A stretch of DNA of 63,982 nt, filler included, from Candidatus Fermentibacterota bacterium (GCA_016928395.1; 6 parts of 6 records of this genome joined end to end with filler, not necessarily neighbours in it), one strand, 5' to 3'. Numbered from the whole stretch's first letter, positions 1 to 15,723 are shown. The notes: generated by a model from the sequence alone, not told the origin. A program made the numbers and translations.

Positions 1-6
1 CGTTCC

Positions 7-1664: not shown

Positions 1665-2597
1665 ATGCCAGACGCCTCAGACCTTTGCGATGAACCGCTG
1701 CTCGACGCCTTCGGGCGGCACCTTGCTCTGGAGCGGCGGCTGAGCCCGCATACCGTGCGGGCCTACCTCTCCGATTTGCGGCAGTTCGCCGAAGTCCTGC
1801 GCAGCATGCGTGCCCGGGGGAGGATCGAAGAGGCGACCCGGGAGCAGGTGCGCGCCTACCTGGCCCATCTTCACGGGACGGGAGTGGGCGGGAGAAGCCT
1901 GGGGAGAAAGCTCTCCAGCCTCCGGGCATTCTTCGCGTGGCTTGGCGGCCGGGACAATCACGACCCCACCGCAGCACTTACCAGGCCCAAGGAGCGCAGG
2001 GCATTGCCCCGGGTGCTCTCTGAGACCCAGGCAGGCGCTCTGGTGGAGTCGCCGGATCCCCAGTGCGCCGACGCAGGGCGGGATCGCGCGATTCTGGAAC
2101 TGCTCTATGGTTCCGGGCTGCGGGCATCCGAGGTTGTGGCGGCGGATGTGGAGGACCTCGACCTCTCGACGCGGCTCTTGCGGGTGCACGGCAAGGGAGG
2201 CAAGGAGCGGATCGTGCCTATGGGCGGGCCGTGCGTCATGGCGCTCAAGGCTCATCTGGAGGCCCGGGCCGCCGCGATCGGCTCGTGGCAGGGGCCGCTC
2301 TTTCCTGGGCGAGGATCGGGCGGGAGGATCAGTTCGAGGACAGTCCAGCGCATCGTAACAGCATGGGCGGGCCGTTCCGGCATGGGCGGCGTGCACCCTC
2401 ATCTCCTGCGCCACACGTTCGCGACGCATCTTCTGGACCGGGGCGCCGAGCTTCGCGCCGTCCAAGAACTCCTGGGCCACGCCAGCCTGGCCACCACGCA
2501 GATCTATACGCATCTTACTCTGGAACGGATGCGCACGGCCTACCAGCAGGCCCATCCCCATGCCGGGGAGGAAACGGGCTCAGACACCGATCCGTAG
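1665..2597 (+). CDS. xerC: Tyrosine recombinase XerC-like
   Basis: SPHTVRAY N-domain, LELLYGSGLRASE, GKGGKER, HPHLLRHTFATHLL, LLGHASLATTQIY; follows trmFO as in the common trmFO-xerC order. Confidence 0.88.
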   Translation: MPDASDLCDEPLLDAFGRHLALERRLSPHTVRAYLSDLRQFAEVLRSMRARGRIEEATREQVRAYLAHLHGTGVGGRSLGRKLSSLRAFFAWLGGRDNHDPTAALTRPKERRALPRVLSETQAGALVESPDPQCADAGRDRAILELLYGSGLRASEVVAADVEDLDLSTRLLRVHGKGGKERIVPMGGPCVMALKAHLEARAAAIGSWQGPLFPGRGSGGRISSRTVQRIVTAWAGRSGMGGVHPHLLRHTFATHLLDRGAELRAVQELLGHASLATTQIYTHLTLERMRTAYQQAHPHAGEETGSDTDP

Positions 2598-2949
2598 TGG
2601 CGGGACTTGGCGCCCGCCCAACGTCTCGCCCGTCGGCTGGCGATCGTGCCATAGCCGTGTCACCCCGCATCCGCTGGTGCGGGGGCACCCTGTGTGAGGC
2701 GCAGTTCCCGGCGTGTGATCGCGGTGGCGATGGGCTGCTCGTCCATCACTCCGGGTCATACGTACGGTCACGAAATGAGGGCGACGGTCGACCAGGCAGA
2801 AGCGATCGATGAGGGCGCATATCCGCTGCGATATCGAACCGATCGAGCACCCCAGAGCGCCGGGATGCAACGGCGATCGAATGCGACCGCATCCGTACAT
2901 TCGAGTATGCAGGTACCCACAATCCCGAAGAACCCGGGAAGTCCTCAGT

Positions 2950-4179
2950 CTACTCCCGGAACTCCAGGGTCAGGCAGTGAGGGCCTGAGGAGCCGAACCC
3001 AAGGATGGCGCCTCCACGCATGTGATGGACCGTGCGGCCTGAAACGCGCCGGTAGACTCGCGTCGCGACACTGTCCAGGGCCGTGATACCGTAGACCGGC
3101 ATGATGATGCCGTCATCCCAGACCAGGCAGTTCGGGTAGGCGATGGTAGGCAGGTGGGGAGTGTGGCGATTCGGGCTGTGTATGGAGCCGGGCCAGAACG
3201 GTACCCGCACCACGGTGAACCCGCGAGTACGCAATGCCTCGGCGATTCGGTCGTCCCATTCGTAGGGGGGCTGCTGCTGTACCGCCGCCGCGAAGGCCTC
3301 GGGCGGGGCGAGTGAGGCCAGGAGCCTCAACTTGTCGCGGATGAACGGCCACAGGATCAGAGCGGGCTTCATATTCCTGCGAAACGAAAGCCTGCCTCCT
3401 CGCACGGCGTAGTCCATATTGCCCGCAGAAGCCGCAAATTCGGCCGACCAGCGCGCCACGATGGCGGTGCATTCCTCGGGAGTCAAGGCCTCAAGCACAG
3501 TCCTGGCCATGCCATCGTCACCGACAACGACGAGACTGTCGGAGAGCGGCATCACCAGGAGATCCAGGTGGAATCGCTCCGGGAGTGGGGGAGAGGGGAG
3601 GGCGACAAGCGTCCCCTCAAGGACCTCCTCCAGCGCAGAGACATCCAGCCGGTCAGGGTGGAGCACCACGCTGCCGCAGGAGAGGAGGTTGGCTCCCGCG
3701 AACTCGAGCGGAAGGTCGTGACGTTCTATGCCGTAGGTCTCATCGAGGGAATCGAAGACCGGGCGGAGCTGATGATGATCTCCTGCGCTGACCCACATCC
3801 GTCCCGCCGCATCAACGACCGCCTGGTCGCGGGGCCAGGGCCCGTATGCCCGGGCATCCTGGACGAAGTAGAGGTTCGGCCGCTTGGCCCCCGTCGCCCC
3901 CTTTCTCCCCTGGGCGAGAGTCGAGGAGAAGATCTCGAATGACGGGCTCGATAAAGCAAACTGGTTGATGATGATTGCCTGCTCATGAGGAAGCGCCTCC
4001 AGGATATCGATCATCGACGCGAGGCCGACCTCGGCCGTCTGCGAGTATACGAGGATGATTCTGGAGACATTGCCTTCCCACGAACTCTGAAGCTGGATAC
4101 TTGAAGGAGCGGGGGGGCCGGGCACGGCGAGGGCCACATGGACAGGAAGAAGGACTGCCAAGAACCGCGCTGCCCGCAT
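2950..4179 (-). CDS. Secreted pentein-fold enzyme (agmatine/peptidyl-arginine deiminase-like)
   Basis: ATG at 4179 with GGAGG RBS and signal peptide MRAARFLAVLLPVHVALA; motifs WPRD, FHLD, YPN and C-terminal GPHCLT. Confidence 0.65.
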   Translation of the reverse strand: MRAARFLAVLLPVHVALAVPGPPAPSSIQLQSSWEGNVSRIILVYSQTAEVGLASMIDILEALPHEQAIIINQFALSSPSFEIFSSTLAQGRKGATGAKRPNLYFVQDARAYGPWPRDQAVVDAAGRMWVSAGDHHQLRPVFDSLDETYGIERHDLPLEFAGANLLSCGSVVLHPDRLDVSALEEVLEGTLVALPSPPLPERFHLDLLVMPLSDSLVVVGDDGMARTVLEALTPEECTAIVARWSAEFAASAGNMDYAVRGGRLSFRRNMKPALILWPFIRDKLRLLASLAPPEAFAAAVQQQPPYEWDDRIAEALRTRGFTVVRVPFWPGSIHSPNRHTPHLPTIAYPNCLVWDDGIIMPVYGITALDSVATRVYRRVSGRTVHHMRGGAILGFGSSGPHCLTLEFRE

Positions 4180-4238
4180 CTGGATGCCTCCATGGGGTCT
4201 CTCGGCGAGATGGCGATGCCAGGGCGCAGTCGGAGACA

Positions 4239-5132
4239 TCATCCTGGCATCTTTCCGCCGCCCAGAGGGGCTGTGCCGATCTCGCTGAGGGCCTGCAATG
4301 GCAAGACGCTTCGTTCGGGCCACGTGAGGACCCCGGTCCTTTCCGCATCGATCCGTGCGAAGCTTCTACGCCGGAGCCAGTCGCCGGGGTTCACCAGCAG
4401 TCCCGGGGCAAGGTCAACGGTCTGGGCGGTATGGGTATGCGCCACCACCACGGTGTCAATCCCTTCTGCGATGCAGCGGCGGGCAAAGGGGATGTAGCGG
4501 TCATTCTTCCACGTGCGTTTGTACTCCGCTGACTGTCGTGAGAGCCGCGACACGCTTCGTGCCAGCCAGAATGCGACTTCAGGGTGAAGGAGCCCGAAGG
4601 CGCGAATGGCCGCGCGGTTGCGTAGCAGGCGTTTGAGCAGGTGATACCCCCGGTCCGATGGGTTGAGCCCGTCACCGTGGGTGAGCATGATGCGTCTGGC
4701 GCCGACATTCCAGATCTCACGCTCCTCGGCGACACGGACGCCGATCTCTCTGGGGAAGAAGTTGCCCAGCCAGAAGTCGTGATTGCCCGGGAACAGGACG
4801 ACGTCCTTGCCTTGGCCGACCAGATCGCGGAGCGCGCACAGGAGCCGGTGGAATCCCCCGGGTACCACGTGGGGATACTCGAACCAGAAATCGAAGATGT
4901 CGCCCAGGAGCACGATGTGGGTCGCGCGCGGCGCTTCGACCGCGAGCATCTCAGCCAACTCATCAACCCGCGCCACTGACTCCTGCGTCGGCAGTTGCGG
5001 AAGATGAAGATCGGAGAAGATGAGGAGTCGGGAGTCGGCAGTCGGCAGTCGGGATATCCCCCCTGCGCGAAAGGGGGAGGCTGAGTCTCGACCTCGACCC
5101 CGGTCATTCGTCGTTGCCGGGCGGGATGTCAT
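4239..5132 (-). CDS. lpxH: UDP-2,3-diacylglucosamine diphosphatase (LpxH-like metallophosphoesterase)
   Basis: SDLHL, LLGDIFDFWF, GNHDFW, THGD, AHTH, NPGDW; N-terminal ~35 aa are repeat-derived and the start is uncertain. Confidence 0.8.
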   Translation of the reverse strand: MTSRPATTNDRGRGRDSASPFRAGGISRLPTADSRLLIFSDLHLPQLPTQESVARVDELAEMLAVEAPRATHIVLLGDIFDFWFEYPHVVPGGFHRLLCALRDLVGQGKDVVLFPGNHDFWLGNFFPREIGVRVAEEREIWNVGARRIMLTHGDGLNPSDRGYHLLKRLLRNRAAIRAFGLLHPEVAFWLARSVSRLSRQSAEYKRTWKNDRYIPFARRCIAEGIDTVVVAHTHTAQTVDLAPGLLVNPGDWLRRRSFARIDAERTGVLTWPERSVLPLQALSEIGTAPLGGGKMPG

Positions 5133-5605
5133 GTTCCACCATCCGGCTGTTCACTCGAACCAAAGCATCCCGAATGCGATCTCGAGGCGCCACAAAGTCC
5201 CCCCTTCCAAGAAGGGGGGTGAGGGGGGATTTCTCCCGCGAGGCGTGCCGCCATCGCACGGTGGATAGTCTCCACGACTGCAACAGTGTCCTTAATCACC
5301 TCGGAGCTGTTGAAGCGCATGACCTGCAGCCCGATTCCGGCCAAATACCTGTCGCGTCGAGCATCTCGATTCGCCTGTGCTGGCTCGCCATGCTGTGAAC
5401 CGTCAATCTCGACAACCAGCCTCGCAGCAGGGGCGTAGAAGTCAACAATGTAATCTCCGATTGGCTTCTGACGGTAGAACTGCATGCCATGCAGCTGTTT
5501 CCTCCGAAGTCTGCTCCAGAGGCGTCGCTCACTATCCGTCAGAGTCGCCCTGAGAACCCTGGCCGGCCTCTTGAGCCGTGGTGCGTACCGTATGATCTTC
5601 GTCAT
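5129..5605 (-). CDS. DUF559 (Vsr-like) endonuclease domain protein
   Basis: T-x-x-ERRLWSRLR, FYRQKPIGDYIVDF, LVVEIDGSQH, DARRDRYL, VMRF. Confidence 0.9.
   Translation of the reverse strand: MTKIIRYAPRLKRPARVLRATLTDSERRLWSRLRRKQLHGMQFYRQKPIGDYIVDFYAPAARLVVEIDGSQHGEPAQANRDARRDRYLAGIGLQVMRFNSSEVIKDTVAVVETIHRAMAARLAGEIPPHPPSWKGGLCGASRSHSGCFGSSEQPDGGT
5197..5232. repeat. Left copy of ~36-bp hairpin-containing inverted repeat flanking the DUF559 core
   Basis: GTCCCCCCTTCCAAGAAGGGGGGTGAGGGGGGATTT; similar to the reverse complement of 5612-5647. Confidence 0.8.
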
Positions 5606-5611
5606 TTCGGG

Positions 5612-5647
5612 AAATCCCCCTTAGTCCCCCTTTGCCAAAGGGGGAGA
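5612..5647. repeat. Right copy of ~36-bp inverted repeat flanking DUF559
   Basis: AAATCCCCCTTAGTCCCCCTTTGCCAAAGGGGGAGA. Confidence 0.8.
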
Positions 5648-5742
5648 TCCTTGCGCACGCAGCTCGTGCCCATCAGGCTCCATAGCTCAGATCCCCTGAA
5701 CTGTCCCCGACACGCTCTGTCACTCATCTCTCAATCCCGGGC

Positions 5743-7140
5743 TCACTCTCTCTTCTGGGTCTTGGATTTCCCGACCCCGTCGGGTGTTCCGGATTTCCCG
5801 ACCCTGTCCGACGTTTCGGATTTCGGATTTCGTGCTTCGGGTTTCTCTCCGAGCTGCAGCTTCCCTTCCCAGCCCACACTTCTCGGCCTGTAGTACCGGC
5901 GGGGCTTCATGCCGTCGGGCCAGTGCTGTTGGGCAGACGCGGCGTGGGGATCGTCGTGGGCGTAGACATAGCCCTTGCCGTAGCCCAGATCATCCATGAG
6001 GCGCGTCGGGGCATTGCGCAGCACCATGGGAACGGGCAGTGAACCCATAGTGCGGGCGTCTCCCCTTGCCGCGGTCAGCGCAGTGTAGACAGCATTGCTT
6101 TTCGGGGCCAATGCCAAGTACACCACTGCTTGAGCCAGAGCGCAGTCCGCCTCGGGCAGACCGAGAAGTTGCACCGTATGCATCGCGGCAACCGCGACGG
6201 GCAGAGCTTGTGGATGCGCGGTGCCGATATCCTCACTGGCGACCCTGATTAGCCGCCGCGCGATGTACAAAGGGTCCTCGCCCGATTCCACCATCCGGGC
6301 AAGCCAATAGAGCGCCGAGTCGACATCGGAATCACGGATGCACTTGTGCAAGGCCGAAATGATGTTATAGTGCTCCTCGCCTCCTTTGTCATAGAGGAGC
6401 GCCTGCTGCCCGGCTACCTCCCGCACCGAGGCCGGGGTGACTGCCTCGCCGGATCGATTCGTCGCCGCCACCGCCTCCAGTAGATTCAGCCCCTTGCGGA
6501 GATCGCCGTCAGCCAGTTCGGCGATGAGAACGAGGGCCGCGTCACTCCAGCCCGTCGCATCGAGCCCCAAGCCGCGCTCTGTATGGACGAGAGCCCTTCG
6601 AATCACCACCAGGACGTCCTCACTCTCAAGCCGCTTCAGGGGGTACACCGTGCAGCGGGAGAGGAGCGGGCCGACGAGCTGGAATGACGGGTTCTCCGTG
6701 GTGGCGCCGATGAGCTGAAGCGTGCCGTCTTCCACATGGGGGAGCAACCCGTCCTGCTGGGTTTTGTTGAAGCGGTGAATCTCATCCACGAAGAGGATGG
6801 TCCGGCGGCCACTTCGCGCCAGAGCGTGCCTCGCTTGGGAGACGACGATTCGCAGCTCGGGAAGTCCCGACGTGACGGCACTGAATGCAAGGAATCGTTT
6901 CGAGGTGTACCGCGCGACGACTGACGCCAGCGACGTCTTGCCGCACCCGGGTGGGCCCCACAAGATAACCGATCCCAGGGTGTCCTCCTCCAATGCACGG
7001 CGGAACGCCGCGCCCGGCAGTAGGAGATGCCCCTGCCCCACGACTTCGTCGAGATTCACCGGCCTCATGCGGTGGGCCAACGGCGCATCCGCCGGTGGTG
7101 TCTCAGCGATATCAAGTTCAAAAAGGTCTAGCTGCTCCAT
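5743..7140 (-). CDS. rarA: Replication-associated recombination protein A (RarA/MgsA AAA+ ATPase)
   Basis: PLAHRMRP, GPPGCGKT, FVDEIHRFNKTQQD, GATTENPSF, HYNIISALHK, LRNAPT, GYGKGYVYAHD; likely start MEQLDLF at 7140. Confidence 0.93.
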   Translation of the reverse strand: MEQLDLFELDIAETPPADAPLAHRMRPVNLDEVVGQGHLLLPGAAFRRALEEDTLGSVILWGPPGCGKTSLASVVARYTSKRFLAFSAVTSGLPELRIVVSQARHALARSGRRTILFVDEIHRFNKTQQDGLLPHVEDGTLQLIGATTENPSFQLVGPLLSRCTVYPLKRLESEDVLVVIRRALVHTERGLGLDATGWSDAALVLIAELADGDLRKGLNLLEAVAATNRSGEAVTPASVREVAGQQALLYDKGGEEHYNIISALHKCIRDSDVDSALYWLARMVESGEDPLYIARRLIRVASEDIGTAHPQALPVAVAAMHTVQLLGLPEADCALAQAVVYLALAPKSNAVYTALTAARGDARTMGSLPVPMVLRNAPTRLMDDLGYGKGYVYAHDDPHAASAQQHWPDGMKPRRYYRPRSVGWEGKLQLGEKPEARNPKSETSDRVGKSGTPDGVGKSKTQKRE

Positions 7141-7395
7141 CACCGTGCTCTTCCTCTTGCGTCGTGGCGGGCCACAATATACTTTGTCTTTGGATTTCCC
7201 AATAGGGGAACATGTTTGCCGCTGCCATCCCCCGTGAGAGCAGGCCGCCTGGTGGCCAGATGCGGGCCATATCGTGGTCTCATCCGGCCCATCGGCGTCC
7301 AACACCTCCGCCGTGCGACCCTACCACGCGGTGCGCATCGACGGAACGTGGCACGTTCACCCCTTCGGGTGGTTTTGCCATCCGAGGAGAATCAC

Positions 7396-7445
7396 TTGAC
7401 AGACTATGTCATCGCCAAGACATTTATCTAGTCTTAATGATTATG
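7396..7445 (+). promoter_or_regulatory. Candidate promoter/operator upstream of the TBDR operon
   Basis: AT-rich patch with TTGACA overlapping the dyad TGACA-gacta-TGTCA, followed by AAGAC-N9-GTCTT; no clean -10 box. Confidence 0.3.
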
Positions 7446-7707
7446 TGCCGTGCGCGAACTCTGACGCGCCCCTACCGCCAGGCCGTCCATGCGATGTGTC
7501 GTGCGGGGCGGCCGTCGGCAGTTCTGCTCAGGGATTCACCGCCATCGCCGCAGGGAGGAGGTGCGAACAAGGACGAAACCATTAGCTGGTCTTCCGGCCG
7601 CACCGAGCGCGCAGCCGAGAGACACCGCTTCGTCGTTCAGTTCGGGTATGCCGGCCTGCGGGCCGCGTTTGGAGGTCGCCCCGCCAGGGGCAAGACAGGA
7701 GGTTAGG

Positions 7708-10700
7708 ATGCGACACGGAGGGCTCCTCACCACCTTGCTGCTATTCTGCGTTATGCCGGCGCTTGTGTTCGCCGGCACAACCGGGAAGGTGGCGGGCATG
7801 GTGTCCGATGCCAGTACCGGCAAGCCGCTTGCCTACGTGAACATCATGATCGAGGGCACGACGCTCGGTCAGGCAACGGATGAGACCGGGGAGTTCAACA
7901 TCATCGGCGTTCCCGCCGGATCGTGGAGTGTGCGTGCCTCCATGATCGGCTACGCCGACCAAGTGGAACAGAGCGTTCCCGTCTCGGTCGATCTCACGAC
8001 CAAAGTCGACTTCGCGCTCTCCCCCAAGGCGCTCGTGGTGGGGGACGAGATCGTCGTTGTGGCGGAGCGTCGGCTGATCAGGCCAGACGAGACGCAGAGT
8101 ATGCGAACGACCTCGCGGGAAGATCTTGCCATCCTTCCCGTGACCACCATGCAGGACGTGCTCACCAAGAGCACCAGCACGGCGGGAACGGGCAACAATC
8201 TCCACGTTCGTGGCGGTCGAGCCGGTGAGGCAACCGTGCTGGTCGACGGAATGACCATCTCGGAGCCACAGTATCGGACAAACAATCTCGAGGTCGGCCG
8301 CGAGGCTCTGGCCGAGATGCAGATGTTGACCGGTGGCTTCAATGCCGAGTACGGAGACGCGCAATCCGGCATCATCATCGTCACGACCCGTGAAGGCACG
8401 CCCGAGTCGTACTCCGGCAAGATCATGTATCAGACCGACGACATCGCAGACAACGGCCTGACGCCAGCCAGCACCAATTACGACTACATGGAGTTCAGCA
8501 TTGGCGGCCCCGAGCCCATCACCAGCAAGCTTCTCCCGCAACTGGGCGTGAAGATCCCGGGGAACCTGACCATGTTTCTCCAGGGCGACGTGACGTTCAC
8601 CGATCGCCAGGCCTTCCACCAGGATGCCTTCGACAGCAGCGCCATTCGCCTCTCGTCGGAGCAGTGGCGGTGGTGGAATGATCACAATTCCTCCGCGCCG
8701 AATCTGGAGCCTGCCATATCCCGCGAGTTGGGGACTTCCGACCAGTTCAGGTCAGCCAATATCCTGGATGATCTTTTCGGCGTCGGCAAGAGGGAGCGGA
8801 ACTGGCAGAACGGCAATATCAAGCTGAGCTACTCCCCAAGCCCGACCTACAACCTGGCCTTCAGCAGCCGATGGAGCAACAAGGACCGCAACTTCTGGCA
8901 TGCCAGCCAGGGCAATGATCTGCGAAAGATGATCCCCATGGCCCAGGCTCTGGGCATTGATGACGGCATCGACAATGACGGTGACGGCCTCATCGACGAG
9001 GAAGTCTTCAACGGTATCGACGATGACGGAGACGGCTACGTCGACGAACTCGACGGTACGCTGATCGATCCGGCCACCTACCTCGGCGGCAGCTTGGGCG
9101 GTATGGACCTCAGTTGGGGCGTTGACCGCGACGGCGACGACCGCATCGACGAAGAGGCCTGGAACGGGATCGATGACGACGGTGATGGCCTGATCGACGA
9201 AGATCTCCAGCCGGACATCTTCCAGGGCCAATACTACAATGGCTGGGATTTCATGTTTACCCAGAAGAACGAGGATAACCAGCAACTGCTGACATGGAAG
9301 CACGTCGTCGGCAGGTCGACCTTCTACGAGGTCAAGCTCTCCCGTCTGCGGAACATGCAAGCCTGGATGCCCAAACGCGGGCAAGACGGAGAATCCGCAT
9401 CGGATATCGACGAGATCCGCGGCTGGCTTGACGACTACGAGGCCTACCGCGTCGCATACGCGGAGTACCTGCGCCTCCTTGATGCCGGCGACACGACGGC
9501 GGTCAGGCCGACCTCGCCAGATCCGTATCTGGGCATGGGCTATGTCCAGGAGCCGTATACTGACACGAACGGCAACTACCGGTATGACCTTGGAGAGCCT
9601 TTCGAGGATCTCGACGGTGACGGCATGTGGGACTTCTTCAATGCCTCGGGCGCGAACCGAACCTTGTGGTTCAGCGGCCAGAATCACCCGTTCAGGGGTC
9701 TCTGCTACTACGGAGTATCAGGGTACACCACCGGTGATGATCCTAGCTTCTACCGTTCGGGCGTGAACTACCGCGAATCCAAAACGTGGACACTGAAGGC
9801 AGATGTCACGAGCCAGATCGCCCGGAATCACATGCTCAAGGCAGGCATCGAGGGAAAGACCTACGACCTCCAGAACTGGAGCCGGCAGCTTCTGGCCGGA
9901 GACAACGGCGAAGGCTTGTTCGGCAATGATTATCACTTCAAGCCTCAGGCCGCAGCGGCCTATGTCCAAGACAAGATGGAGTACCAGAGCGCCATCGTGA
10001 ACATGGGGCTTCGTTTTGACTACTTCAGCCAGGGTGACAATGTGGACCCGTTGCCGCTTGACGCGGGGTCGAGTATCGCCCGTCGCGGCGAGGAAACTCC
10101 CGAGCCATCCTTCAGCCTTCTGCCTCGCTTTGGGATCAGCTTCCCGGTCACCGAACGCGACGTGTTCCACTTCTTCTACGGGCACTTCTTCCAACAGCCC
10201 CTGCTCTTCAATGTGTTCAACAAGGTTAACCAGGCCATCTCGAGTTCGAATGACATCATTGGCAACCCCTATCTCGAGCCTGAGAAGACCATCAGCTACG
10301 AATTCGGGATCAAGCACCAGTTCGGGATCAATTCGTTGGCAACCGTGACGGCCTTCTTCAAGGATGTCGACAATCTCGTACAGATTGACCGGATTTTCGA
10401 GGGTGCGCCGACTAACATGGTCTATCACACGTATGTGAACAGCACATACGGAACGGTTCGCGGATTCGAGGTCACCGCGTCGCAGCGGGATCTCTACAAC
10501 TTCAGCGGAGAGGTGAGCTACACCTACCAGATCGCCACCACGACGCACTCCACCTCGTATGACACGTACACCGGGTACGAGCAGTTCCAACTGCTGCCCG
10601 GCAAAGAGTACCCGGCGGATTGGGATCGGCGGCATAGCGTCACCTTCAACCTGAGCTACGGCCTGGGTTCCGGCGAGGGTCCCTCCATCGGTGGAATCAA

Positions 10701-11097
10701 GCCCTTCTCCGACCTTAGCGTGAGCGTGCTCGGCGAAATCGGAAGCGGGCTGCCCTACACGCCGACCTCCAGCAACGACTCGCCGCTGTACGAACTGACG
10801 AATGAAAACCGCCTGCCCTGGACCCATGAGTGGGATCTTCGCCTCCTGAAGAAGCTCACCCTCGGCAAGGTCAGATGGGGCATCCAGATGGACATGTACA
10901 ACGTGTTCGACAGCATGAACGTCGTGAGCATTGATGATGGCGGCGCCGTCGATCAATACCGCGACAGGATCGGCTACACCAATAGCAGCGGCGCGACCAG
11001 CCTGAGGAACTACGGCGGATTCGAGAACTCGATTGCCCTGCCCACGGCATGGGATTCGGGGCGCAGGATCCGTCTGGGAGTGTCGGTTGAGTTCTGA
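7708..11097 (+). CDS. TonB-dependent receptor with N-terminal carboxypeptidase-regulatory-like domain and acidic DxDGDG repeat insertions
   Basis: AGGAGG RBS, signal peptide, GTTGKVAG, LHVRGGRAGE plug, TGGFNAEYGDAQSG, PRFGISFP, GNPYLEPEKTISYE, C-terminal RLGVSVEF. Confidence 0.92.
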   Translation: MRHGGLLTTLLLFCVMPALVFAGTTGKVAGMVSDASTGKPLAYVNIMIEGTTLGQATDETGEFNIIGVPAGSWSVRASMIGYADQVEQSVPVSVDLTTKVDFALSPKALVVGDEIVVVAERRLIRPDETQSMRTTSREDLAILPVTTMQDVLTKSTSTAGTGNNLHVRGGRAGEATVLVDGMTISEPQYRTNNLEVGREALAEMQMLTGGFNAEYGDAQSGIIIVTTREGTPESYSGKIMYQTDDIADNGLTPASTNYDYMEFSIGGPEPITSKLLPQLGVKIPGNLTMFLQGDVTFTDRQAFHQDAFDSSAIRLSSEQWRWWNDHNSSAPNLEPAISRELGTSDQFRSANILDDLFGVGKRERNWQNGNIKLSYSPSPTYNLAFSSRWSNKDRNFWHASQGNDLRKMIPMAQALGIDDGIDNDGDGLIDEEVFNGIDDDGDGYVDELDGTLIDPATYLGGSLGGMDLSWGVDRDGDDRIDEEAWNGIDDDGDGLIDEDLQPDIFQGQYYNGWDFMFTQKNEDNQQLLTWKHVVGRSTFYEVKLSRLRNMQAWMPKRGQDGESASDIDEIRGWLDDYEAYRVAYAEYLRLLDAGDTTAVRPTSPDPYLGMGYVQEPYTDTNGNYRYDLGEPFEDLDGDGMWDFFNASGANRTLWFSGQNHPFRGLCYYGVSGYTTGDDPSFYRSGVNYRESKTWTLKADVTSQIARNHMLKAGIEGKTYDLQNWSRQLLAGDNGEGLFGNDYHFKPQAAAAYVQDKMEYQSAIVNMGLRFDYFSQGDNVDPLPLDAGSSIARRGEETPEPSFSLLPRFGISFPVTERDVFHFFYGHFFQQPLLFNVFNKVNQAISSSNDIIGNPYLEPEKTISYEFGIKHQFGINSLATVTAFFKDVDNLVQIDRIFEGAPTNMVYHTYVNSTYGTVRGFEVTASQRDLYNFSGEVSYTYQIATTTHSTSYDTYTGYEQFQLLPGKEYPADWDRRHSVTFNLSYGLGSGEGPSIGGIKPFSDLSVSVLGEIGSGLPYTPTSSNDSPLYELTNENRLPWTHEWDLRLLKKLTLGKVRWGIQMDMYNVFDSMNVVSIDDGGAVDQYRDRIGYTNSSGATSLRNYGGFENSIALPTAWDSGRRIRLGVSVEF

Positions 11098-11099
11098 CC

Positions 11100-11119
11100 G
11101 AGGGGGCTTCGGCCCCCTC
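11100..11119 (+). other. Intercistronic GC-rich hairpin with cUUCGg tetraloop
   Basis: GAGGGGGC-TTCG-GCCCCCTC just after the TBDR stop; no U-tract. Confidence 0.65.
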
Positions 11120-11140
11120 TCCGAAGGGAGAGAGGAACGT

Positions 11141-13534
11141 ATGAGAAGGACACACATGCTCGCGGTATGGGCAGCGCTGGCTGCCGTGTGCCTGAGCTTG
11201 GCCGTCCCTCCCCGGGCGATCGCGGCACGGTCTGAGGACGCCGTCATGGAGGCGTTCCAGGCGCCGGCGCTCATCGCCGAGAGGAGGTTCGCCAATCACG
11301 TCAAAGGTCTTCAATGGATGGGCATGTCCAACAAGGGAGAGTGGGGCAACCCTGACGGACTCCCGATCTCGCTGTATGAGCTGGAGTACCCGGGTGGAAG
11401 CGGCACGGTCTTCCTGTTCTCGGGCGGCGTCTGGGTAGGCGCCGTCAAGAACGGGGTGCCGATTGTATCCACCGCCACCGATGGCAACAATGGGACAGGC
11501 GAGTACGGCGGCCTCGACTTCGCAACGCCCGCAGACCAGCAGACCGACACCAGAAGCGTCGGATGGCTGGAAAAGACCAAGGATGCCGTGACCGATGCCG
11601 CGGTACTTGATGCGTTTCGCGCCGGGCGCTATCTGGGCAAGGGCGTCAAGGAGAAGGATGACGACGGAGACTGGAACGTCGAGGATGACGTCAACGGCGA
11701 CGGCAAGCCCAGTGCCGACTTCGATGGCCGACCCGGGATCGACGATGATGGAGACGGCGCCATCGACGAGGAGATCCTGAACGGCATCGATGACGATGGC
11801 GACGGCCTCATTGATGAGGATGTCGGCTCCATCGACGAAGCCTGGGTCATGGCCAATGCCGAGGTGCTTGACTACCTCTGCGATGATGGGACACGGATCA
11901 CCGCCGGCGATGCCAACGGCGACGGCGTCTTTGACTATGATCCCGAGACCCACATCGACGAGGATCCTGCGGGCGATATCTCCAACGACTTCCTGGACAA
12001 CGACCATGACGGCCTGTTCGACATGGACGATCCCGACTATGACGGCGATATGGTTGTCGAGAGTCTGGATGATGATGGCGACGGCCTCTTCGATGAGGAT
12101 GATCTGGCCCGGGCAGGCCAGGAGTTCATCGTCGCCTACGCGGATACCTGTGAACGGTGCGTCGAGGATGCCGACACCGATGGGTTCACTCCCCTGGGCG
12201 TTCGCGTCGTGCAGCATACCTACCAGTGGTCTGAAACCTATGCCGATGACTTCATCCTCATGGACTTTGAGATCACCAACATAGGGAACTCCCTCCTGGA
12301 AGGCGTCTGTGTGGGGACGTTCTTCGACTTCGACATCGGCCATGTGACCCAGGAAGGCGGGGCACGTTCGGAAGACGATGTCACTTCCTACGTGGATTCC
12401 CTGCAGCTTGCCATCGGCGGCGACAACGACGGCGACAATGGCCTGCTCGAGGCGCAGTTCTTCGGCGTCCGGGTCATTCAGACACCGTTGCCAGACGTGG
12501 GGGCGACCTACCGGAATTTCGATCGACTGACCGGTGGCGATCCTCCTGACAATGCAGCCAAGTACGAGCTCATGGCTTCCGGCGCCCGTGACCCGGATAA
12601 TGACACCCCCGGCGACTGGCGCTTCGTGTTGGCGTTTGGCCCCTTGGGCAACCTCCCGCCGGGGCAAACGCTTCCGGTCACCGTAGCCATCGTCAACGGG
12701 TTCGACATGGCGCAGATCGTGGTCAACGCCCGCCAAGCCAAGGCCATGTTCGATGCTGACTTCCGTGGCCCGTCATCCCCTGACTCTCCCGTGTTCACGG
12801 CACAGGCCGTCAATCGGGGCGCCACGATCGTATGGAAGGACAATGCCGAAGCCAGCGTTGACCCCATCTCCCAATACATGGATTTCCAGGGCTACAGTAT
12901 CTGGAGATCGCCGGAAGGGCTGACCTGGACCCGCGTCGCAACCTGGGACTTGCCCGACACCATCGGCCTGAACATAGGATGGCCGCCTCCGGCCTCCACT
13001 GTTGAGGGCTTCCTGTACCAGTATGAGGATGTCGGCTTGGCCAATGGCTTCCCGTACAGGTATGTGGTGACCGCCTTCGATGACGGCGGCAATGGCGACG
13101 GCATCAACAATCCTCAGTGGGACGAGCGGAACAGCGGGGTCGGCGTGTTGGAATCCAGCCGTGGCGTGGATCTCCAGCAGGTCGTGTATCCCGCGGTTGC
13201 GGCGGGCGCGGCGGATGATGTGAGCGGCGTGTTCGTCGTGCCGAATCCCTATATCGGATCGTCGCGCCTCGAGCAAGTGGCCCGGACCGACGAGGCTGGC
13301 GTGCGTCAGTACTACAAGGATATCGAGTTCCGAGGACTCCCCGGCGAGTGTGACATACAGATCTTCACGCTGTCCGGCGACCTCGTGCAAGAGATCCACC
13401 ATGACAGCGGTCTTTCGTGGTACGCCTGGAATCTGCGAACCAACAGGAACCAGGAGATCGCCGCGGGGATCTATGTCTACCGCGTTTCCCGCGGCGGTAA
13501 TGAGACCGTCGGCAAGTTCATCGTCGTGAAGTAG
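11141..13534 (+). CDS. Secreted acidic protein with DxDGDG repeats, FN3-like domain and T9SS/FlgD-Ig-like C-terminal domain
   Basis: Signal peptide; EYPGGSG..LFSGGVWVGA; many DxDGDG motifs; DFQGYSIWRS..YRYVVTAFD; C-terminal VVPNPY..IQIFTLSGDLV..WNL..AGIYVYRV..GKFIVVK. Confidence 0.8.
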   Translation: MRRTHMLAVWAALAAVCLSLAVPPRAIAARSEDAVMEAFQAPALIAERRFANHVKGLQWMGMSNKGEWGNPDGLPISLYELEYPGGSGTVFLFSGGVWVGAVKNGVPIVSTATDGNNGTGEYGGLDFATPADQQTDTRSVGWLEKTKDAVTDAAVLDAFRAGRYLGKGVKEKDDDGDWNVEDDVNGDGKPSADFDGRPGIDDDGDGAIDEEILNGIDDDGDGLIDEDVGSIDEAWVMANAEVLDYLCDDGTRITAGDANGDGVFDYDPETHIDEDPAGDISNDFLDNDHDGLFDMDDPDYDGDMVVESLDDDGDGLFDEDDLARAGQEFIVAYADTCERCVEDADTDGFTPLGVRVVQHTYQWSETYADDFILMDFEITNIGNSLLEGVCVGTFFDFDIGHVTQEGGARSEDDVTSYVDSLQLAIGGDNDGDNGLLEAQFFGVRVIQTPLPDVGATYRNFDRLTGGDPPDNAAKYELMASGARDPDNDTPGDWRFVLAFGPLGNLPPGQTLPVTVAIVNGFDMAQIVVNARQAKAMFDADFRGPSSPDSPVFTAQAVNRGATIVWKDNAEASVDPISQYMDFQGYSIWRSPEGLTWTRVATWDLPDTIGLNIGWPPPASTVEGFLYQYEDVGLANGFPYRYVVTAFDDGGNGDGINNPQWDERNSGVGVLESSRGVDLQQVVYPAVAAGAADDVSGVFVVPNPYIGSSRLEQVARTDEAGVRQYYKDIEFRGLPGECDIQIFTLSGDLVQEIHHDSGLSWYAWNLRTNRNQEIAAGIYVYRVSRGGNETVGKFIVVK

Positions 13535-13565
13535 CGCGGGCATGATAGACCATAAGGAGGGTAGC

Positions 13566-14585
13566 ATGAAGCGAGCAGTCGCGATCCTGGCGCTTGTGGT
13601 TCTGTTACTGCCCGCCACCGGCTTCGCAGTCGAGCGGGTAGGAACCACGGCATACCAGTTCTTGAAACTCAATGTCGGAGTCCGCGGCGTGGGCATGGGC
13701 AATGCCCTCGTCGCGGGCGTCAATGACGCTACAGCGGTGTACTGGAATCCCGGCGGCCTTGGCTGGATGGAGAATCGCGAGGTCGCCCTGACCCACGTGA
13801 ATCTCCCCGCCGATATCAGCTACGAGCTGGCGGCGCTGGCCTGGCCTCTGGGGGAGACGGGGGTCCTCGGCCTGCAGGCCGGGGTACTCCACATGGATGA
13901 CATGGAAGTTCGCACGGCCGAGAGGCCGGAGGGTACCGGCGAGTACTTCACCGCGTCGGACATACAATTTGGTCTGACATTCGCCAAGATGGTGACCGAC
14001 CGTTTCGTGTTCGGGATCACCGGCAAGTACCTCCGCGAAGAACTGGCGGAGTATGTGTCCAGCAATTTCACGGTGGACGTTGGTCTGCAGTATCAGACCG
14101 GGTTCCGCTCTCTGCGGCTGGGCATGGTGATGCAGAGCTATGGCCCCGATGCAACCTTTGACGGTTCGTTTATCGACTACCGCGAGAGCGCCGGCACGAC
14201 GGGTGAGCCGGTGGAGCGGGATTTTCAGCCCGCGACGCAGCCGCTGTCGTTCAAGGCAGGCGTGCTCGCCGACCTTGAGACCATGGCCGGCTTCGACATG
14301 GGCGGCAACATGGGTGGCCTGGTGGCGCTGCAGTTCGAACACCCCTCAGACAACCAGGAACGGGTGAATACCGGGCTGGAGATGACCTATGGGCCTCTGG
14401 CGTTGCGCGCCGGCTACAACTTCAACTACGACACTGACGGCTTCACCTTCGGGTTCGGCGTCACGCAGAACTTCTCCGGCAAAGCCGTTCGGATCGACTA
14501 CGCGTATGCGGACATGGGCGACATGACCGACACCAGCTCGTTCATGAACCAGCCCCACCGGTTCGCCTTCGCGTTCGAGTTCTGA
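13566..14585 (+). CDS. PorV/PorQ (UPF0164)-family outer-membrane beta-barrel
   Basis: AAGGAGG RBS; GTTAYQFLKL, GVRGVGMGNA, DATAVYWNPGGL, LRAGYNF, IDYAY, C-terminal FAFEF. Confidence 0.85.
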   Translation: MKRAVAILALVVLLLPATGFAVERVGTTAYQFLKLNVGVRGVGMGNALVAGVNDATAVYWNPGGLGWMENREVALTHVNLPADISYELAALAWPLGETGVLGLQAGVLHMDDMEVRTAERPEGTGEYFTASDIQFGLTFAKMVTDRFVFGITGKYLREELAEYVSSNFTVDVGLQYQTGFRSLRLGMVMQSYGPDATFDGSFIDYRESAGTTGEPVERDFQPATQPLSFKAGVLADLETMAGFDMGGNMGGLVALQFEHPSDNQERVNTGLEMTYGPLALRAGYNFNYDTDGFTFGFGVTQNFSGKAVRIDYAYADMGDMTDTSSFMNQPHRFAFAFEF

Positions 14586-14613
14586 TGGCCCCGGAGTCAA
14601 GGGAGGACACGAT

Positions 14614-15623
14614 ATGTTCAAACCGACCGTGAAGCACTGGCTAGCCTTGGCGCTGGTGATGGGGCTGGTTTCGGCCTGCGGCCTGATCGAGCCCAAGGAT
14701 AGCGAGCCATACCCGAATCAGGCGCCGGAGACAATCCTGACTGCATTCCCGCCCAATGTCTACGACCATACGGTCACCTTCAACTGGAAGGGCCAAGACA
14801 ATGACGGGATCATCATGCACTATGAGACTTCCGTCGATGGCGGCTCCTGGAACGAGACCACCTCCAGGGATACGACCATCGCCTTCAGCGTGCTAGGCGA
14901 TGCGACCCACACCTTTGCCGTGCGCGCTGTTGACGATGATGGTACTGCTGATCCGACGCCCGCCGAGCGAACCTTCACCGCCACCAGTATTGCGCCGGAG
15001 ACGGTGCTCAAGGCGGCACCAGTCGGCGACGCGCAGGTCGGCCCCGCGCTGACCATCGAGCTGGATGCCGAAGATCCCGACGATGTGATGTTCACCTGGC
15101 GTTACCGTATCGATGAGGGGTCCTGGAGCGACTGGATGGCGGATTCTACATTTGCCTTCGCTCTTCCCACCATCGTGCCCGGCGCGCTGGGGATTCTTGA
15201 TGTCGGGACTCACATCTTCTACGGCCAGGCCCGGGATGCCTCCGGCCTTGAGGGTTCCTTGGCGAGCGTCTCCTTTGAGGTGATCGAGGGAACCGAGCCC
15301 ACGACATCGGTTGTGTTGAGCCAGATCAACGAACGGGCGACCTATGCCGACTATTCGATGTTCACGGCCATCGACAACAAGAACGCAGTGCACTACGAAG
15401 TCGATGCGGACGCATCGGGCTACAGCGGTGTTCTGGCCGGATTTTCCTACATCTGGTGTCGTGATGCGGATCTCGCCACGGCCCAGTTCTCGGAGTGGAC
15501 GATGGAGACCGAGTATGACTTCCCCAATGTCCCAGCGGGAACGTACTGGTTTATCCTCAAGGCCCGCGACACCGCCGGCAGCGAGGACTCCTCGCCCGAG
15601 AGCCTGTTCGTGGATATCGTCGA
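14614..15623 (+). CDS. Lipoprotein with tandem Ig/FN3-like repeats (truncated by gap)
   Basis: Lipobox LVSAC; about three repeats of APET..W..D.DG..Y..DG.W..H.F.VRA.D..G. Confidence 0.75.
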
Positions 15624-15723
15624 NNNNNNNNNNNNNNNNNNNNNNNNNNNNNNNNNNNNNNNNNNNNTTAATTAATTAANNNNNNNNNNNNNNNNNNNNN
15701 NNNNNNNNNNNNNNNNNNNNNNN
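15624..15723. other. Assembly spacer (N44-TTAATTAATTAA-N44)
   Basis: N runs around an all-frame stop linker. Confidence 0.98.

What the first reader, a model, noticed from the sequence alone, without database searches (positions are those of the whole stretch)
7708..15623. SusD-less TBDR + CTD partner + PorV barrel + lipoprotein operon: candidate alternative to SusCD uptake systems
Seen: four tightly spaced co-oriented genes encode a TonB-dependent receptor, a ~800-aa secreted protein ending in a T9SS/FlgD-Ig-like CTD, a PorV/PorQ-family barrel and an Ig-repeat lipoprotein. No SusD-like gene is visible before the gap. Known: Bacteroidota PorV binds T9SS CTDs, and SusC receptors pair with SusD lids. 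Inference: a locus-specific PorV tethers the CTD partner at the surface next to its receptor, forming a separate uptake or surface-sensing machine.
Basis: partly seen in the sequence, partly recalled or inferred. Interest (0 to 1): 0.85.

Follow-up and report, generated by a model that had tools for sequence, protein, structure and literature searches.

The report
TonB receptor with PorV-anchored surface partner
Four neighbouring outer-membrane genes (a TonB-powered importer, a sugar-binding-type secreted protein, that protein's own PorV-like barrel and a lipoprotein) form a unit that recurs across many relatives of the Bacteroidota and probably captures and imports nutrients without the well-known SusD lid.

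Summary
Window 7708-15623 holds four tightly spaced, co-oriented genes. They encode a TonB-dependent receptor, a 797-aa secreted protein (P2) with a type IX secretion tail, a PorV/PorQ-family barrel and a lipoprotein. The lipoprotein is cut by a contig end, which is what the "gap" is.

No SusD was found anywhere in this 94%-complete genome, nor in the one orthologous locus whose downstream genes I scanned.

The unit is one of six paralogous cassettes in this genome; one of the others is followed by a GH31 gene and one by a CBM20 gene. The same gene set recurs in Cloacimonadota, Krumholzibacteriia, Eisenbacteria, Calditrichota and GTDB Bacteroidota, in several gene orders.

P2 folds as a carbohydrate-enzyme-type supersandwich, then an FN3 domain, then a PorZ-like tail. 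The barrel is predicted to hold that tail (score 0.91, best control 0.00), though a similar PorV-tail complex has been solved.

My reading is a SusD-free capture-and-import unit that depends on type IX secretion. Contact between receptor and partner, permanent tethering and the substrate are all untested.

Against simple replacement of SusD, 24 of 43 carrier genomes in one sample also have SusD.

This scan flagged the same cassette earlier in at least 12 other genomes. Six literature searches found no description of it.

The parts
7306..7707 (.). Intergenic region between the divergent MgsA/RarA-like gene and the receptor gene; presumed promoter region of the operon.
   Evidence: ORF map. No Rfam family reached its gathering score. 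No sigma-70-like site was found here. RNA-library contigs from runs X5 and X8 cover 7466-7730.
7708..11097 (+). TonB-dependent receptor, 1129 aa: signal peptide, CarboxypepD_reg-like N-terminal domain, plug, barrel.
   Evidence: Pfam and NCBIfam hits. Five paralogues in cassettes elsewhere in the genome. No solved relative by sequence.
8971..9207 (+). Asp-rich insert in the receptor (residues about 422-500) with three copies of a DDDGDGxxDE-type motif. Placing it in an extracellular loop is inference, made because periplasmic turns of such barrels are short.
   Evidence: Motif scan. In this genome the motif occurs only in this receptor; among the 24 other receptors scanned it occurs only in those of L003, L004, L053, L059 and L071.
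11141..13534 (+). P2, 797 aa, a secreted type IX secretion cargo protein of a family without a Pfam model.
   Evidence: The model has mean pLDDT 80.2 and pTM 0.73.
11276..12769 (+). Supersandwich (galactose-mutarotase-like) domain of P2, residues 46-543. An Asp-rich, low-confidence insert (about residues 150-320, nt 11588-12100) loops out of it.
   Evidence: VIA-align Z 20.0 to the glucodextranase N-domain 1ulv_A (rmsd 3.1, 236 aligned), and Z 17-20 to the N-domains of GH15, GH116, GH94 and GH65 enzymes. Motif positions.
12794..13090 (+). FN3-like domain of P2, residues 552-650.
   Evidence: Secondary structure of the model. Foldseek hits are dominated by tandem FN3 proteins.
13229..13531 (+). 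C-terminal sorting domain (CTD) of P2, residues 697-797, type-A and PorZ-like.
   Evidence: NF052228 tail match and TIGR04183. Z 12.6, rmsd 2.3, 92 aligned, 25% identity to the PorZ CTD 5m11_A. It forms the predicted interface with the barrel.
13566..14585 (+). Cassette-specific PorV/PorQ-family barrel, 339 aa (alternative start 13542).
   Evidence: NF033709 scores 177.4 bits against a cut-off of 90. PorQ 90.3, PorVQ2 74.6 and PorV 51.6 bits are all below their equivalog cut-offs. The family profile finds F. johnsoniae PorV 6h3i_F at E 1.6e-30.
14614..15623 (+). Lipoprotein, first 336 aa only (three Ig-like domains); cut by the contig end. Full-length orthologues add a GATase1/ThuA-like alpha/beta domain.
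   Evidence: Lipobox read from the sequence. Orthologues in L003, L004, L071, L059 and L053. Model of the L003 orthologue has pLDDT 78.2. Z 15.9 to the GH42 non-catalytic domain 5xb7_A and Z 10-11 for the Ig-like domains.

Best explanation
This is one copy of a conserved outer-membrane capture-and-import cassette that depends on type IX secretion.

Shown here:
- The four genes form a tight operon-like unit.
- The unit is repeated six times in this genome.
- The same four protein families stay together, in different gene orders, across several FCB-group phyla.
- One of the paralogous cassettes is followed by a GH31 gene and one by a CBM20 gene.
- In Cloacimonadota the Ton energising genes lie inside the unit.

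Inferred mechanism:
1. P2 crosses the inner membrane by Sec and the outer membrane through the SprA translocon, using its C-terminal domain.
2. The general PorV does not hand it to the sortase. Instead the cassette's own PorQ-like barrel takes the C-terminal domain in its extracellular loops and keeps P2 on the cell surface without a covalent bond, as PorQ keeps PorZ.
3. P2's supersandwich domain, helped by the Ig-repeat lipoprotein, binds an extracellular polymer, most likely a glycan.
4. P2 passes the polymer to the neighbouring TonB-dependent receptor, which imports it using TonB-ExbBD.

In function this is what SusD and the surface glycan-binding lipoproteins do for SusC, built from different parts.
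For: Anatomy and family assignments.

Paralogy. A tblastn search of the genome finds receptor, P2 and barrel together on C240, C135, C55, C151 and C293 as well as on C159. Six of 8 P2 paralogues and 6 of about 13 plug-type receptors lie in cassettes.

Context. GH31 follows the C135 cassette. A CBM20 protein with a CTD follows the C151 cassette.

Conservation:
- Of 28 P2 genes with at least 6 kb upstream and 2.5 kb downstream in motif-selected loci, 16 have the receptor upstream and the barrel downstream; this is 17 counting L030.
- In a motif-free sample of the 20 best hits from another phylum, 18 of 20 loci have P2, receptor and barrel on one strand, and 17 also have the lipoprotein. The other 2 are cut by contig ends.
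- The P2 family was found in 3 of 3 genomes of this organism's own phylum, 54 of 61 genomes of the phylum of G003 and 43 of 101 of the phylum of G007.

Ton link. In L008 the genes between receptor and P2 are ExbB, ExbD, ExbD and TonB. In L003, ExbB and TonB lie just upstream of the receptor.

Secretion link.
- This genome has SprA (463 bits), a PorU-like protein (289 bits, below the 420 cut-off) and 91 CTD matches.
- All 43 P2-positive genomes in the G007 sample have SprA_N, and none of the 21 genomes without SprA_N has P2.
- In the G003 sample the counts are 49 with both, 5 with P2 only, 2 with SprA only and 5 with neither.

Fold. P2 is a supersandwich with Z 20.0 to carbohydrate-enzyme N-domains, and its CTD scores Z 12.6 to the PorZ CTD.

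Docking.
- The barrel plus P2 residues 690-797 scored 0.91, 0.90 and 0.91 in three runs, with a best control of 0.00.
- The runs share at least 97% of their contacts, and the partner's pLDDT is at least 82.
- This mark was reached by 116 of 157 solved complexes and by 2 of 215 mismatched pairs.
- The interface includes the family-invariant residues P701, N702, P703 and G746 and the nearly invariant K792. A conserved lysine of type-A CTDs contacts PorV in the solved complexes (PMC10994853, passages read).

A separate general carrier exists. The C97 protein is the most PorV-like in the genome (165 bits on the PorV model), while four of the six cassette barrels score higher on PorQ than on PorV.

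RNA. Contigs from four metatranscriptome libraries match all four genes at 95% or better.
Against: - Nothing here shows physical contact between the receptor and P2.
- The barrel-tail pass may come from likeness to solved SprA-PorV-CTD structures (8GL6 and others). It does not show that this barrel is preferred over the general PorV, nor that the tail stays uncleaved.
- P2 does not always need the unit. Eleven of 28 flank-complete P2 genes had neither a receptor nor a barrel within 10 kb, and two of the 8 paralogues in this genome are orphans.
- This copy has no carbohydrate-active enzyme beside it. Upstream are housekeeping genes, and downstream the contig ends.
- The supersandwich fold also occurs in enzymes such as mutarotases, lyases and GH174, so binding rather than catalysis is an assumption.
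- SusD co-occurs with P2 in 24 of 43 carrier genomes, so the unit is not simply what bacteria without SusD use.
- The RNA evidence comes from short contigs in RNA libraries. No silent-stretch control was laid, so DNA carry-over is not excluded.
- GldL and GldM were not found, so how secretion is powered here is open.
- The co-occurrence counts are across related genomes, which are not independent.
Confidence: 0.55

Rival explanations
1. Dedicated shuttle, not an anchor. The cassette barrel only carries P2 away from the SprA translocon, as PorV does for type-A cargo. A PorU-like sortase then removes the tail, and P2 is released or linked covalently to the surface. The unit would still serve uptake, but without a stable barrel-P2 complex.
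For: A PorU-like protein is present: C87, 289 bits on NF033707, below the 420 cut-off. Orphan P2 genes without a barrel exist: 11 of 28 flank-complete loci and 2 of 8 paralogues in this genome. The authors of the solved complexes expect affinity for PorV to fall once the CTD has left SprA (PMC10994853, passage read).
Against: A private barrel in each cassette is hard to explain if the general PorV-like carrier on C97 can do the job. Among the tail matches in NCBIfam, P2's tail matches best that of PorZ, a protein that keeps its CTD (PMC10202324, passage read). The predicted interface is large, with 165-170 contact pairs.
Confidence: 0.2
2. Not a nutrient importer. The receptor-like barrel exports or assembles something, as the Oar transporter of Myxococcus does for the protease PopC. 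Alternatively the unit is an accessory or energising module of type IX secretion in lineages that lack the PorL/PorM motor.
For: - Oar is a TonB-dependent transporter needed for protein secretion (PMC6434023, abstract seen).
- ExbB-ExbD-ExbD-TonB lie inside the Cloacimonadota unit.
- SprA lies just upstream of the L003 unit.
- The unit is nearly universal and mostly single-copy in the phylum of G003 (54 of 61 genomes).
- No P2-positive genome in the G007 sample has GldM_1st: 0 of 43, against 24 of 58 P2-negative genomes. This genome also lacks detectable GldL and GldM.
Against: Six copies per genome with diverged partners, and GH31 or CBM20 neighbours, fit substrate-specific uptake better than a single machine part. 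P2 has its own secretion tail and SprA is present, so it needs no other exporter. The mutual exclusion with GldM follows lineage and may be phylogeny alone.
Confidence: 0.1
3. P2 is an enzyme rather than a binding protein. It would be a surface glycanase, lyase or epimerase whose supersandwich is the catalytic domain, making oligomers for the receptor.
For: The same fold is found in mutarotases, a PL26 lyase and GH174 endo-fucanases, at Z 12-15. Several acidic residues are conserved in the family: D396 and D492 are invariant, and D398, D412, D413 and D428 nearly so.
Against: The best matches (Z 17-20) are non-catalytic N-domains of larger enzymes, and P2 has no (alpha/alpha)6 or TIM catalytic domain. 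The conserved aspartates may bind calcium.
Confidence: 0.1
4. The genes are co-regulated outer-membrane genes with no physical complex: a receptor, a secreted protein, a FadL-type channel for small hydrophobic molecules and a lipoprotein that merely share an operon.
For: Three paralogous barrels give weak Toluene_X (FadL) Pfam hits, E 4e-7 to 6e-6, below the cut-off.
Against: The four families stay linked through at least three different gene orders and across phyla. The barrel is a clear PorV/PorQ family member. The barrel-tail prediction passes its controls.
Confidence: 0.05

Closest known systems
SusC/SusD (RagA/RagB) core of Bacteroidota polysaccharide utilisation loci
   Same: A TonB-dependent transporter with a CarboxypepD_reg-like N-terminal domain is encoded next to a surface partner. 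There are many diverged copies per genome, some beside glycoside hydrolase or CBM genes, and a multi-domain lipoprotein often accompanies them.
   Different: No SusD-type lipoprotein was found in the genome. The receptor scores 55.4 bits on the SusC/RagA model against a cut-off of 368. The partner is a type IX secretion cargo protein with a supersandwich fold, and a PorV/PorQ-family barrel belongs to the unit.
PorQ-PorZ and PorV-PorU pairs of the Porphyromonas gingivalis attachment complex
   Same: A protein keeps its C-terminal domain and is held at the surface by a PorV/PorQ-family barrel (PMC10202324, passage read; PMC5562754, listing only). P2's tail is closest to the PorZ tail. Four of the six cassette barrels in this genome score higher on the PorQ model than on the PorV model.
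   Different: Those pairs are single-copy parts of the secretion machine itself. Here the pair is multi-copy, linked to a TonB-dependent receptor, and the held protein looks like a glycan binder. No cassette barrel reaches the PorQ or PorV equivalog cut-off.
PorP/SprF-like barrels with type-B CTD cargo (Flavobacterium johnsoniae, P. gingivalis)
   Same: A cognate barrel is encoded next to its cargo and is needed for the cargo's secretion and surface placement (PMC12618676, abstract read; PMC9143113, abstract seen).
   Different: That system uses a different barrel family (PorP/SprF) and a different tail class (type B), and it has no receptor in the unit.
BamG-BamH in the Bacteroidota BAM complex
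   Same: A 14-stranded FadL-like barrel holds an extracellular protein through its extracellular loops (PMC12578637, passage read).
   Different: That barrel is part of the barrel-assembly machine, with no secretion tail and no receptor involved.
Oar-PopC of Myxococcus xanthus
   Same: A TonB-dependent transporter is functionally coupled to a secreted protein (PMC6434023, abstract seen). That Oar carries a CarboxypepD_reg-like N-terminal domain is my recollection, not a result of any call.
   Different: In that system the transporter exports the protein. Here the partner has its own secretion signal and translocon.

Membership tests
TonB-dependent receptor (generic) | A plug domain followed by a TonB-dependent barrel. 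| tested here: met
   Plug scores 28.7 bits (cut-off 23.9) and OMP_b-brl_3 62.5 bits (cut-off 27). The paralogues match TonB_dep_Rec_b-barrel at 82-112 bits.
SusC/RagA subfamily (TIGR04056) | A whole-protein score over the curated cut-off of 368.25 bits. | tested here: not met
   The score is 55.4 bits, and only residues 27-234 match (the N-terminal domain and plug).
SusC/SusD polysaccharide utilisation locus | A SusD-family gene next to the receptor. | tested here: not met
   PF07980 and PF14322 were not found in the 94.18%-complete genome, and both models found B. thetaiotaomicron in the control set. The orthologous locus L003 has none. The window's copy is cut 1 kb into gene 4.
PorV/PorQ family (NF033709) | A score over the 90-bit cut-off. 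| tested here: met
   177.4 bits. The five paralogous cassette barrels score 166-224 bits.
PorV proper (NF033710) or PorQ proper (NF033711) | The equivalog cut-off: 250 bits for PorV, 220 bits for PorQ. | tested here: not met
   PorV scores 51.6 bits and PorQ 90.3 bits.
Type-A T9SS C-terminal sorting domain (TIGR04183) | A score over the 23-bit cut-off and the CTD fold at the extreme C-terminus. | tested here: inconclusive
   The score is 20.2 bits in hmmscan and 24.5 bits in the genome search. The fold matches the PorZ CTD with Z 12.6, rmsd 2.3 and 92 residues aligned.
Type IX secretion system in the host genome | The SprA/Sov translocon. | tested here: met
   TIGR04189 scores 463.3 bits summed over one 1892-aa frame on C299, against a cut-off of 200.
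Type IX secretion system in the host genome | The PorL/PorM (GldL/GldM) motor and the PorK/PorN ring. | tested here: inconclusive
   No match for TIGR03517, TIGR03513 or PF12081. GldK gives only FGE-domain matches of at most 87 bits against a cut-off of 350. PF12081 did find 24 of 101 genomes in another sample, so that model works. Diverged forms cannot be excluded. PorN was not searched.
Type IX secretion system in the host genome | The PorU sortase. | tested here: inconclusive
   The best candidate is on C87, 1376 aa, scoring 289.1 bits against a cut-off of 420.
Galactose-mutarotase-like supersandwich (fold) | A structural match covering the domain. | tested here: met
   Z 20.0, rmsd 3.1 and 236 aligned to 1ulv_A; more than 15 further rows at Z 15 or above. 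This rests on a predicted model of pLDDT 80.2.

The most novel reading that the evidence does not exclude
Many FCB-group lineages outside the classical Bacteroidia use a four-protein surface machine that depends on type IX secretion: a TonB-dependent transporter, a supersandwich capture protein held by its uncleaved secretion tail in a private PorQ-like barrel, and an Ig-repeat lipoprotein. It would be their main way to seize and import polymers. It would be a second, independent solution to the problem that SusC/SusD solves. It would also be a new use of the secretion tail, as a permanent non-covalent membrane anchor that places a partner beside a transporter.
Probability: 0.45. Interest if true: 0.85.

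Novelty: new variant of a known kind. Interest (0 to 1): 0.72.

Why it matters
SusC/SusD pairs are the textbook explanation of how Bacteroidota take up polymers. How their many uncultured relatives do so is largely unknown; these include Cloacimonadota, Calditrichota, Krumholzibacteriia, Eisenbacteria and KSB1-like groups.

A conserved unit that is often multi-copy, and that couples a TonB-dependent transporter to a secreted binder and a private PorV-like barrel, would do three things:
- give those lineages a recognisable marker for substrate-uptake loci;
- extend the role of PorV/PorQ-type barrels from secretion to building surface machines;
- assign a role to a large protein family that has no Pfam model.

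The finding is directly testable in any cultured carrier.

Tried and rejected
Searches that found nothing or gave nothing usable:
- Earlier notes by place and by sequence gave nothing.
- phmmer of the receptor against solved structures found no match at E 0.001.
- Foldseek of the whole P2 model was dominated by tandem FN3 proteins and was uninformative for the main domain. The wide VIA-align search resolved it.
- The Rfam scan of the whole contig found no family at gathering score, so there is no riboswitch hint of a vitamin or metal receptor.
- The promoter and terminator scan found fewer sites than the shuffles, and none between the genes.

False lead:
- G001:C271 carries a P2 gene at nearly the same coordinates as the window. 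I fetched it hoping to see past the contig end. It is an orphan paralogue with no DNA similarity to C159.

Bias in the genome-contig scan:
- The scan used only the Asp-rich motif as its pattern. Its loci are therefore biased towards motif-bearing P2 genes, and it also brought in unrelated archaeal and proteobacterial proteins that share only the motif.
- I therefore repeated the synteny test on a motif-free sample. That sample is the 20 best-scoring hits, so it is weighted towards one subfamily.

Weak leads not relied on:
- The protein atlas placed the lipoprotein near DUF4960 clusters at 0.87-0.89, below the 0.9 bar. That DUF4960 proteins are surface glycan binders is my recollection only.
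- RNA libraries: stretches of the operon without cover in the four runs are not evidence of anything.

Motor and ring components:
- GldL, GldM and GldK were not found or scored below cut-off.

Literature:
- Six searches found no description of a receptor / CTD protein / PorV-like barrel cassette. Subscription journals are not covered.
- The Caldithrix abyssi genome paper mentions only vitamin-type TonB receptors (passages read).

Analysis considered and dropped:
- I considered clustering all CTDs of the genome to ask whether P2 tails form their own class. P2 paralogues share descent along their whole length, so clustering would not be independent evidence.

Full report
**What is there.**
The window is six contigs of one metagenome-assembled genome, joined by runs of N. 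Positions 1-15623 are the whole of contig C159. The genome has 4.79 Mb in 343 contigs and is 94.18% complete.

On the + strand lie four genes, 43, 31 (or 7) and 28 nt apart:

- **Receptor, 7708-11097.** A 1129-aa TonB-dependent receptor. It has a signal peptide, a CarboxypepD_reg-like N-terminal domain, a plug and a barrel.
- **P2, 11141-13534.** A 797-aa protein with a signal peptide and no Pfam family. Its last ~80 residues match the tail of the PorZ model. They sit at the border of the type-A sorting-domain model: 20.2 bits and 24.5 bits, against a cut-off of 23.
- **Barrel, 13566-14585.** A clear member of the PorV/PorQ family, at 177.4 bits against a cut-off of 90. It reaches none of the PorV, PorQ or PorVQ2 equivalog cut-offs.
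- **Lipoprotein, from 14614.** It has a lipobox and runs into the contig end after 336 residues.

The only correction is that the "gap" is a contig end.

**No SusD.**
The SusD_RagB and SusD-like_3 models find nothing in the genome, while both find Bacteroides thetaiotaomicron among the controls. In the closest complete orthologous locus, L003 (P2 49% identical), the unit has the same order. It is followed by the full 585-aa lipoprotein, two further CTD proteins and a TPR/GDSL protein, with no SusD.

**It is a repeated unit.**
A tblastn search of the genome finds receptor, P2 and barrel together on five more contigs:

- C240, C135, C55 and C151 have the order receptor-P2-barrel.
- C293 has the order P2 - CTD protein - lipoprotein - receptor - barrel.
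- Two further P2 paralogues (C172, C22; about 53% identical) stand alone.

The genome has 12 plug matches. Five are in cassettes, and the C55 receptor has lost its plug end to a contig break.

The neighbours differ between copies. A GH31 glycosidase follows the C135 unit. A CBM20 starch-binding protein with a secretion tail follows the C151 unit. The window's own copy sits after housekeeping genes: TrmFO/GidA-like, a XerC/D-type recombinase and MgsA.

**It is conserved elsewhere.**
P2 has 206 relatives at E 0.001 or better among the candidates scored. The full-length ones have no Pfam domain. The sources name candidate division KSB1, Calditrichota, Krumholzibacteria, Chitinivibrionia and Cloacimonadota.

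*Motif-selected loci.* A scan of species-representative genomes brought in 77 loci. It was seeded only on P2's Asp-rich motif, so it is biased towards motif-bearing members. I scanned the loci with profiles I built from this genome's paralogues.

- 54 P2 genes were found, and 28 had enough flank.
- Of those 28, 16 had the receptor upstream and the barrel downstream on the same strand. This is 17 counting L030, where my distance filter failed.
- The other 11 had neither within 10 kb.

*Motif-free sample.* To remove the motif bias I searched the P2 profile in whole genomes:

| Group searched | Genomes with P2 |
|---|---|
| This organism's own phylum | 3 of 3 |
| Phylum of G003 (a Cloacimonadota record) | 54 of 61 |
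| Phylum of G007 (a Bacteroidota record) | 43 of 101 |

I then fetched the flanks of the 20 best hits of the last search:

- 16 have the order P2 - X - lipoprotein - receptor - barrel.
- One has lipoprotein - receptor - P2 - barrel.
- One has receptor - P2 - barrel.
- Two are cut by contig ends.

X carries a Por_Secre_tail in 3 of 3 cases scanned. The four families thus stay together through at least three gene orders, which argues for a functional unit rather than inherited gene order.

**Link to TonB and to secretion.**
In the Cloacimonadota locus L008 the 2.3 kb between receptor and P2 encode ExbB, ExbD, ExbD and TonB. The same spacing is seen in ten such loci. In L003, SprA, an M28 peptidase, ExbB and TonB lie directly upstream.

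This genome has the following:

- SprA, at 463 bits.
- A PorU-like protein, at 289 bits, below the cut-off of 420.
- A separate, more PorV-like barrel on C97, at 165 bits on the PorV model.
- 91 sorting-domain matches.

P2 and SprA_N co-occur:

| Sample | P2 and SprA | P2 only | SprA only | Neither |
|---|---|---|---|---|
| G007 phylum (101 genomes) | 43 | 0 | 37 | 21 |
| G003 phylum (61 genomes) | 49 | 5 | 2 | 5 |

The SprA threshold in the G003 search was strict, so some of the five "P2 only" genomes may be misses. These genomes are related, so the counts are descriptive only.

**What the proteins look like.**

*P2.* The model has mean pLDDT 80.2 and pTM 0.73. Its parts are:

- A supersandwich, residues 46-543. 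It matches the non-catalytic N-domains of glucodextranase, glucoamylase, GH116, GH94 and GH65 enzymes at Z 17-20. The best match is 1ulv_A, with rmsd 3.1 and 236 residues aligned.
- A low-confidence Asp-rich insert that loops out of the supersandwich.
- An FN3 domain.
- A C-terminal domain that matches the PorZ tail: Z 12.6, rmsd 2.3, 92 aligned, 25% identity.

No catalytic domain is present.

*Lipoprotein.* I modelled it from the L003 orthologue (pLDDT 78.2). It has three Ig-like domains, which are the part present in the window. After them comes a GATase1/ThuA-like alpha/beta domain, with Z 15.9 to the non-catalytic domain of a GH42 enzyme.

*Barrel.* The family profile finds Flavobacterium PorV at E 1.6e-30.

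**Docking.**
I folded the barrel together with P2 residues 690-797, using my own alignments.

- The three runs scored 0.91, 0.90 and 0.91. The best of three controls scored 0.00.
- The runs share at least 97% of their contacts, and the partner's pLDDT is at least 82.
- This mark was reached by 116 of 157 solved complexes and by 2 of 215 mismatched pairs.

The interface includes the invariant P701, N702, P703 and G746 and the nearly invariant K792.

SprA-PorV-CTD complexes have been solved. In them a conserved CTD lysine contacts PorV (PMC10994853, passages read; the same entries appear). The pass may therefore reflect that likeness. It shows that the pair looks like a PorV-CTD pair. It does not show that this barrel is preferred, or that the tail stays attached.

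**Expression.**
Contigs from four metatranscriptome libraries match all four genes at 95% or better. One library comes from the same study as the probable source and has pieces without any difference from the window. One contig crosses the junction between the barrel gene and the lipoprotein gene. DNA carry-over was not controlled, so this is weak support.

**Reading.**
The best-supported explanation is a capture-and-import unit. P2 would be exported through SprA, held at the surface by its own PorQ-like barrel and helped by the lipoprotein. It would feed a polymer, probably a glycan, to the TonB-dependent receptor.

- Precedents for the anchoring step are PorQ-PorZ and PorV-PorU. A published suggestion holds that cognate PorV-like barrels protect a tail from cleavage (PMC10202324, passage read).
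- The PorP/SprF shuttles of type-B cargo are a further precedent (PMC12618676, abstract).
- BamG holding BamH is another (PMC12578637, passage).
- The functional analogue is SusC/SusD. It is not a member of that family: the receptor fails the SusC model and there is no SusD.

**Evidence against, and limits.**
- Contact between receptor and P2 is untested.
- Tethering versus shuttling is untested.
- The substrate of this copy is unknown.
- Orphan P2 genes are common.
- P2 could be an enzyme.
- In the G007 sample 24 of 43 P2-positive genomes also have SusD, so the two systems coexist. The genomes with 16 or more SusD matches (10 genomes) all have GldM and none has P2.

**Novelty.**
Six full-text searches found no description of this cassette. 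Subscription journals are not covered.

The scan's own notebook shows that the same cassette was flagged and followed up in at least 12 other genomes, with the same reading. Those are unchecked AI notes. I reached my reading before seeing them and re-tested its main points here.

What this window adds:
- the lipoprotein as a frequent fourth member;
- the Ton genes inside the Cloacimonadota unit;
- the SprA, GldM and SusD co-occurrence counts;
- an Asp-rich motif shared by the receptor and P2 of this subfamily.

I class it as a new variant of known kinds: a transporter with a surface partner, and a secretion cargo with a cognate barrel.

Noticed in passing
G000 genome-wide; samples: SprA without a detectable PorL/PorM motor. 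This genome has SprA, a PorU-like protein and 91 sorting-domain matches, but no GldL or GldM match. In the G007-phylum sample, 56 of 80 genomes with SprA_N lack GldM_1st, including all 43 that carry P2. How secretion is powered in these lineages is unexplained; a diverged motor is not excluded.
   Followed up: partly
window 8971-9207 and 11588-12100: The same Asp-rich, calcium-loop-like motif (DDDGDGxxDE type) occurs three times in the receptor and three times in P2. In this genome it is found in no other cassette receptor. It recurs in the receptors of the orthologous loci L003, L004, L053, L059 and L071. It might mediate calcium-dependent contact or ligand binding.
   Followed up: partly
window 35622-36929 (+), contig C162: Another PorV/PorQ-family barrel. 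It is closest to NCBIfam's 'putative type IX sorting system protein PorV2' (174.7 bits, cut-off 325) and is not in a receptor cassette.
   Followed up: partly
L008 7598-9905, and the same spacing in L011, L014, L018, L019, L021, L031, L037, L038, L040: In Cloacimonadota the unit reads receptor - ExbB - ExbD - ExbD - TonB - P2 - barrel. P2 is present in 54 of 61 sampled genomes, mostly as one copy. Only L008 was scanned with Pfam.
   Followed up: partly
L032 4613-9474 and 9620-14349; L035 7955-12726; L036 7426-12676: P2 and the lipoprotein occur as a pair with no receptor or barrel within 10 kb. These two may therefore also work together on their own.
   Followed up: no
G000 C22 9280-16584 (L086): An orphan P2 paralogue lies downstream of a 1199-aa sensor kinase with Reg_prop, HisKA and HATPase domains. 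From memory, this architecture is typical of the hybrid two-component regulators of Bacteroidota polysaccharide loci.
   Followed up: no
G000 C97 809-4968 (L087): The most PorV-like barrel of the genome lies next to a 1038-aa protein that matches 'T9SS-dependent M6-like inactivated metalloprotease' (236.7 bits, cut-off 600).
   Followed up: no
L071 12256-13176; L053 12478-13365: Calditrichota units carry an extra gene of about 300 aa between P2 and the barrel, with no Pfam match.
   Followed up: no
window 15624-15723 and four further places: The N runs are pairs of 44 N around TTAATTAATTAA. They are joins between separate contigs (C159, C161, C162, C166, C172, C187), so features must not be read across them.
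   Followed up: yes
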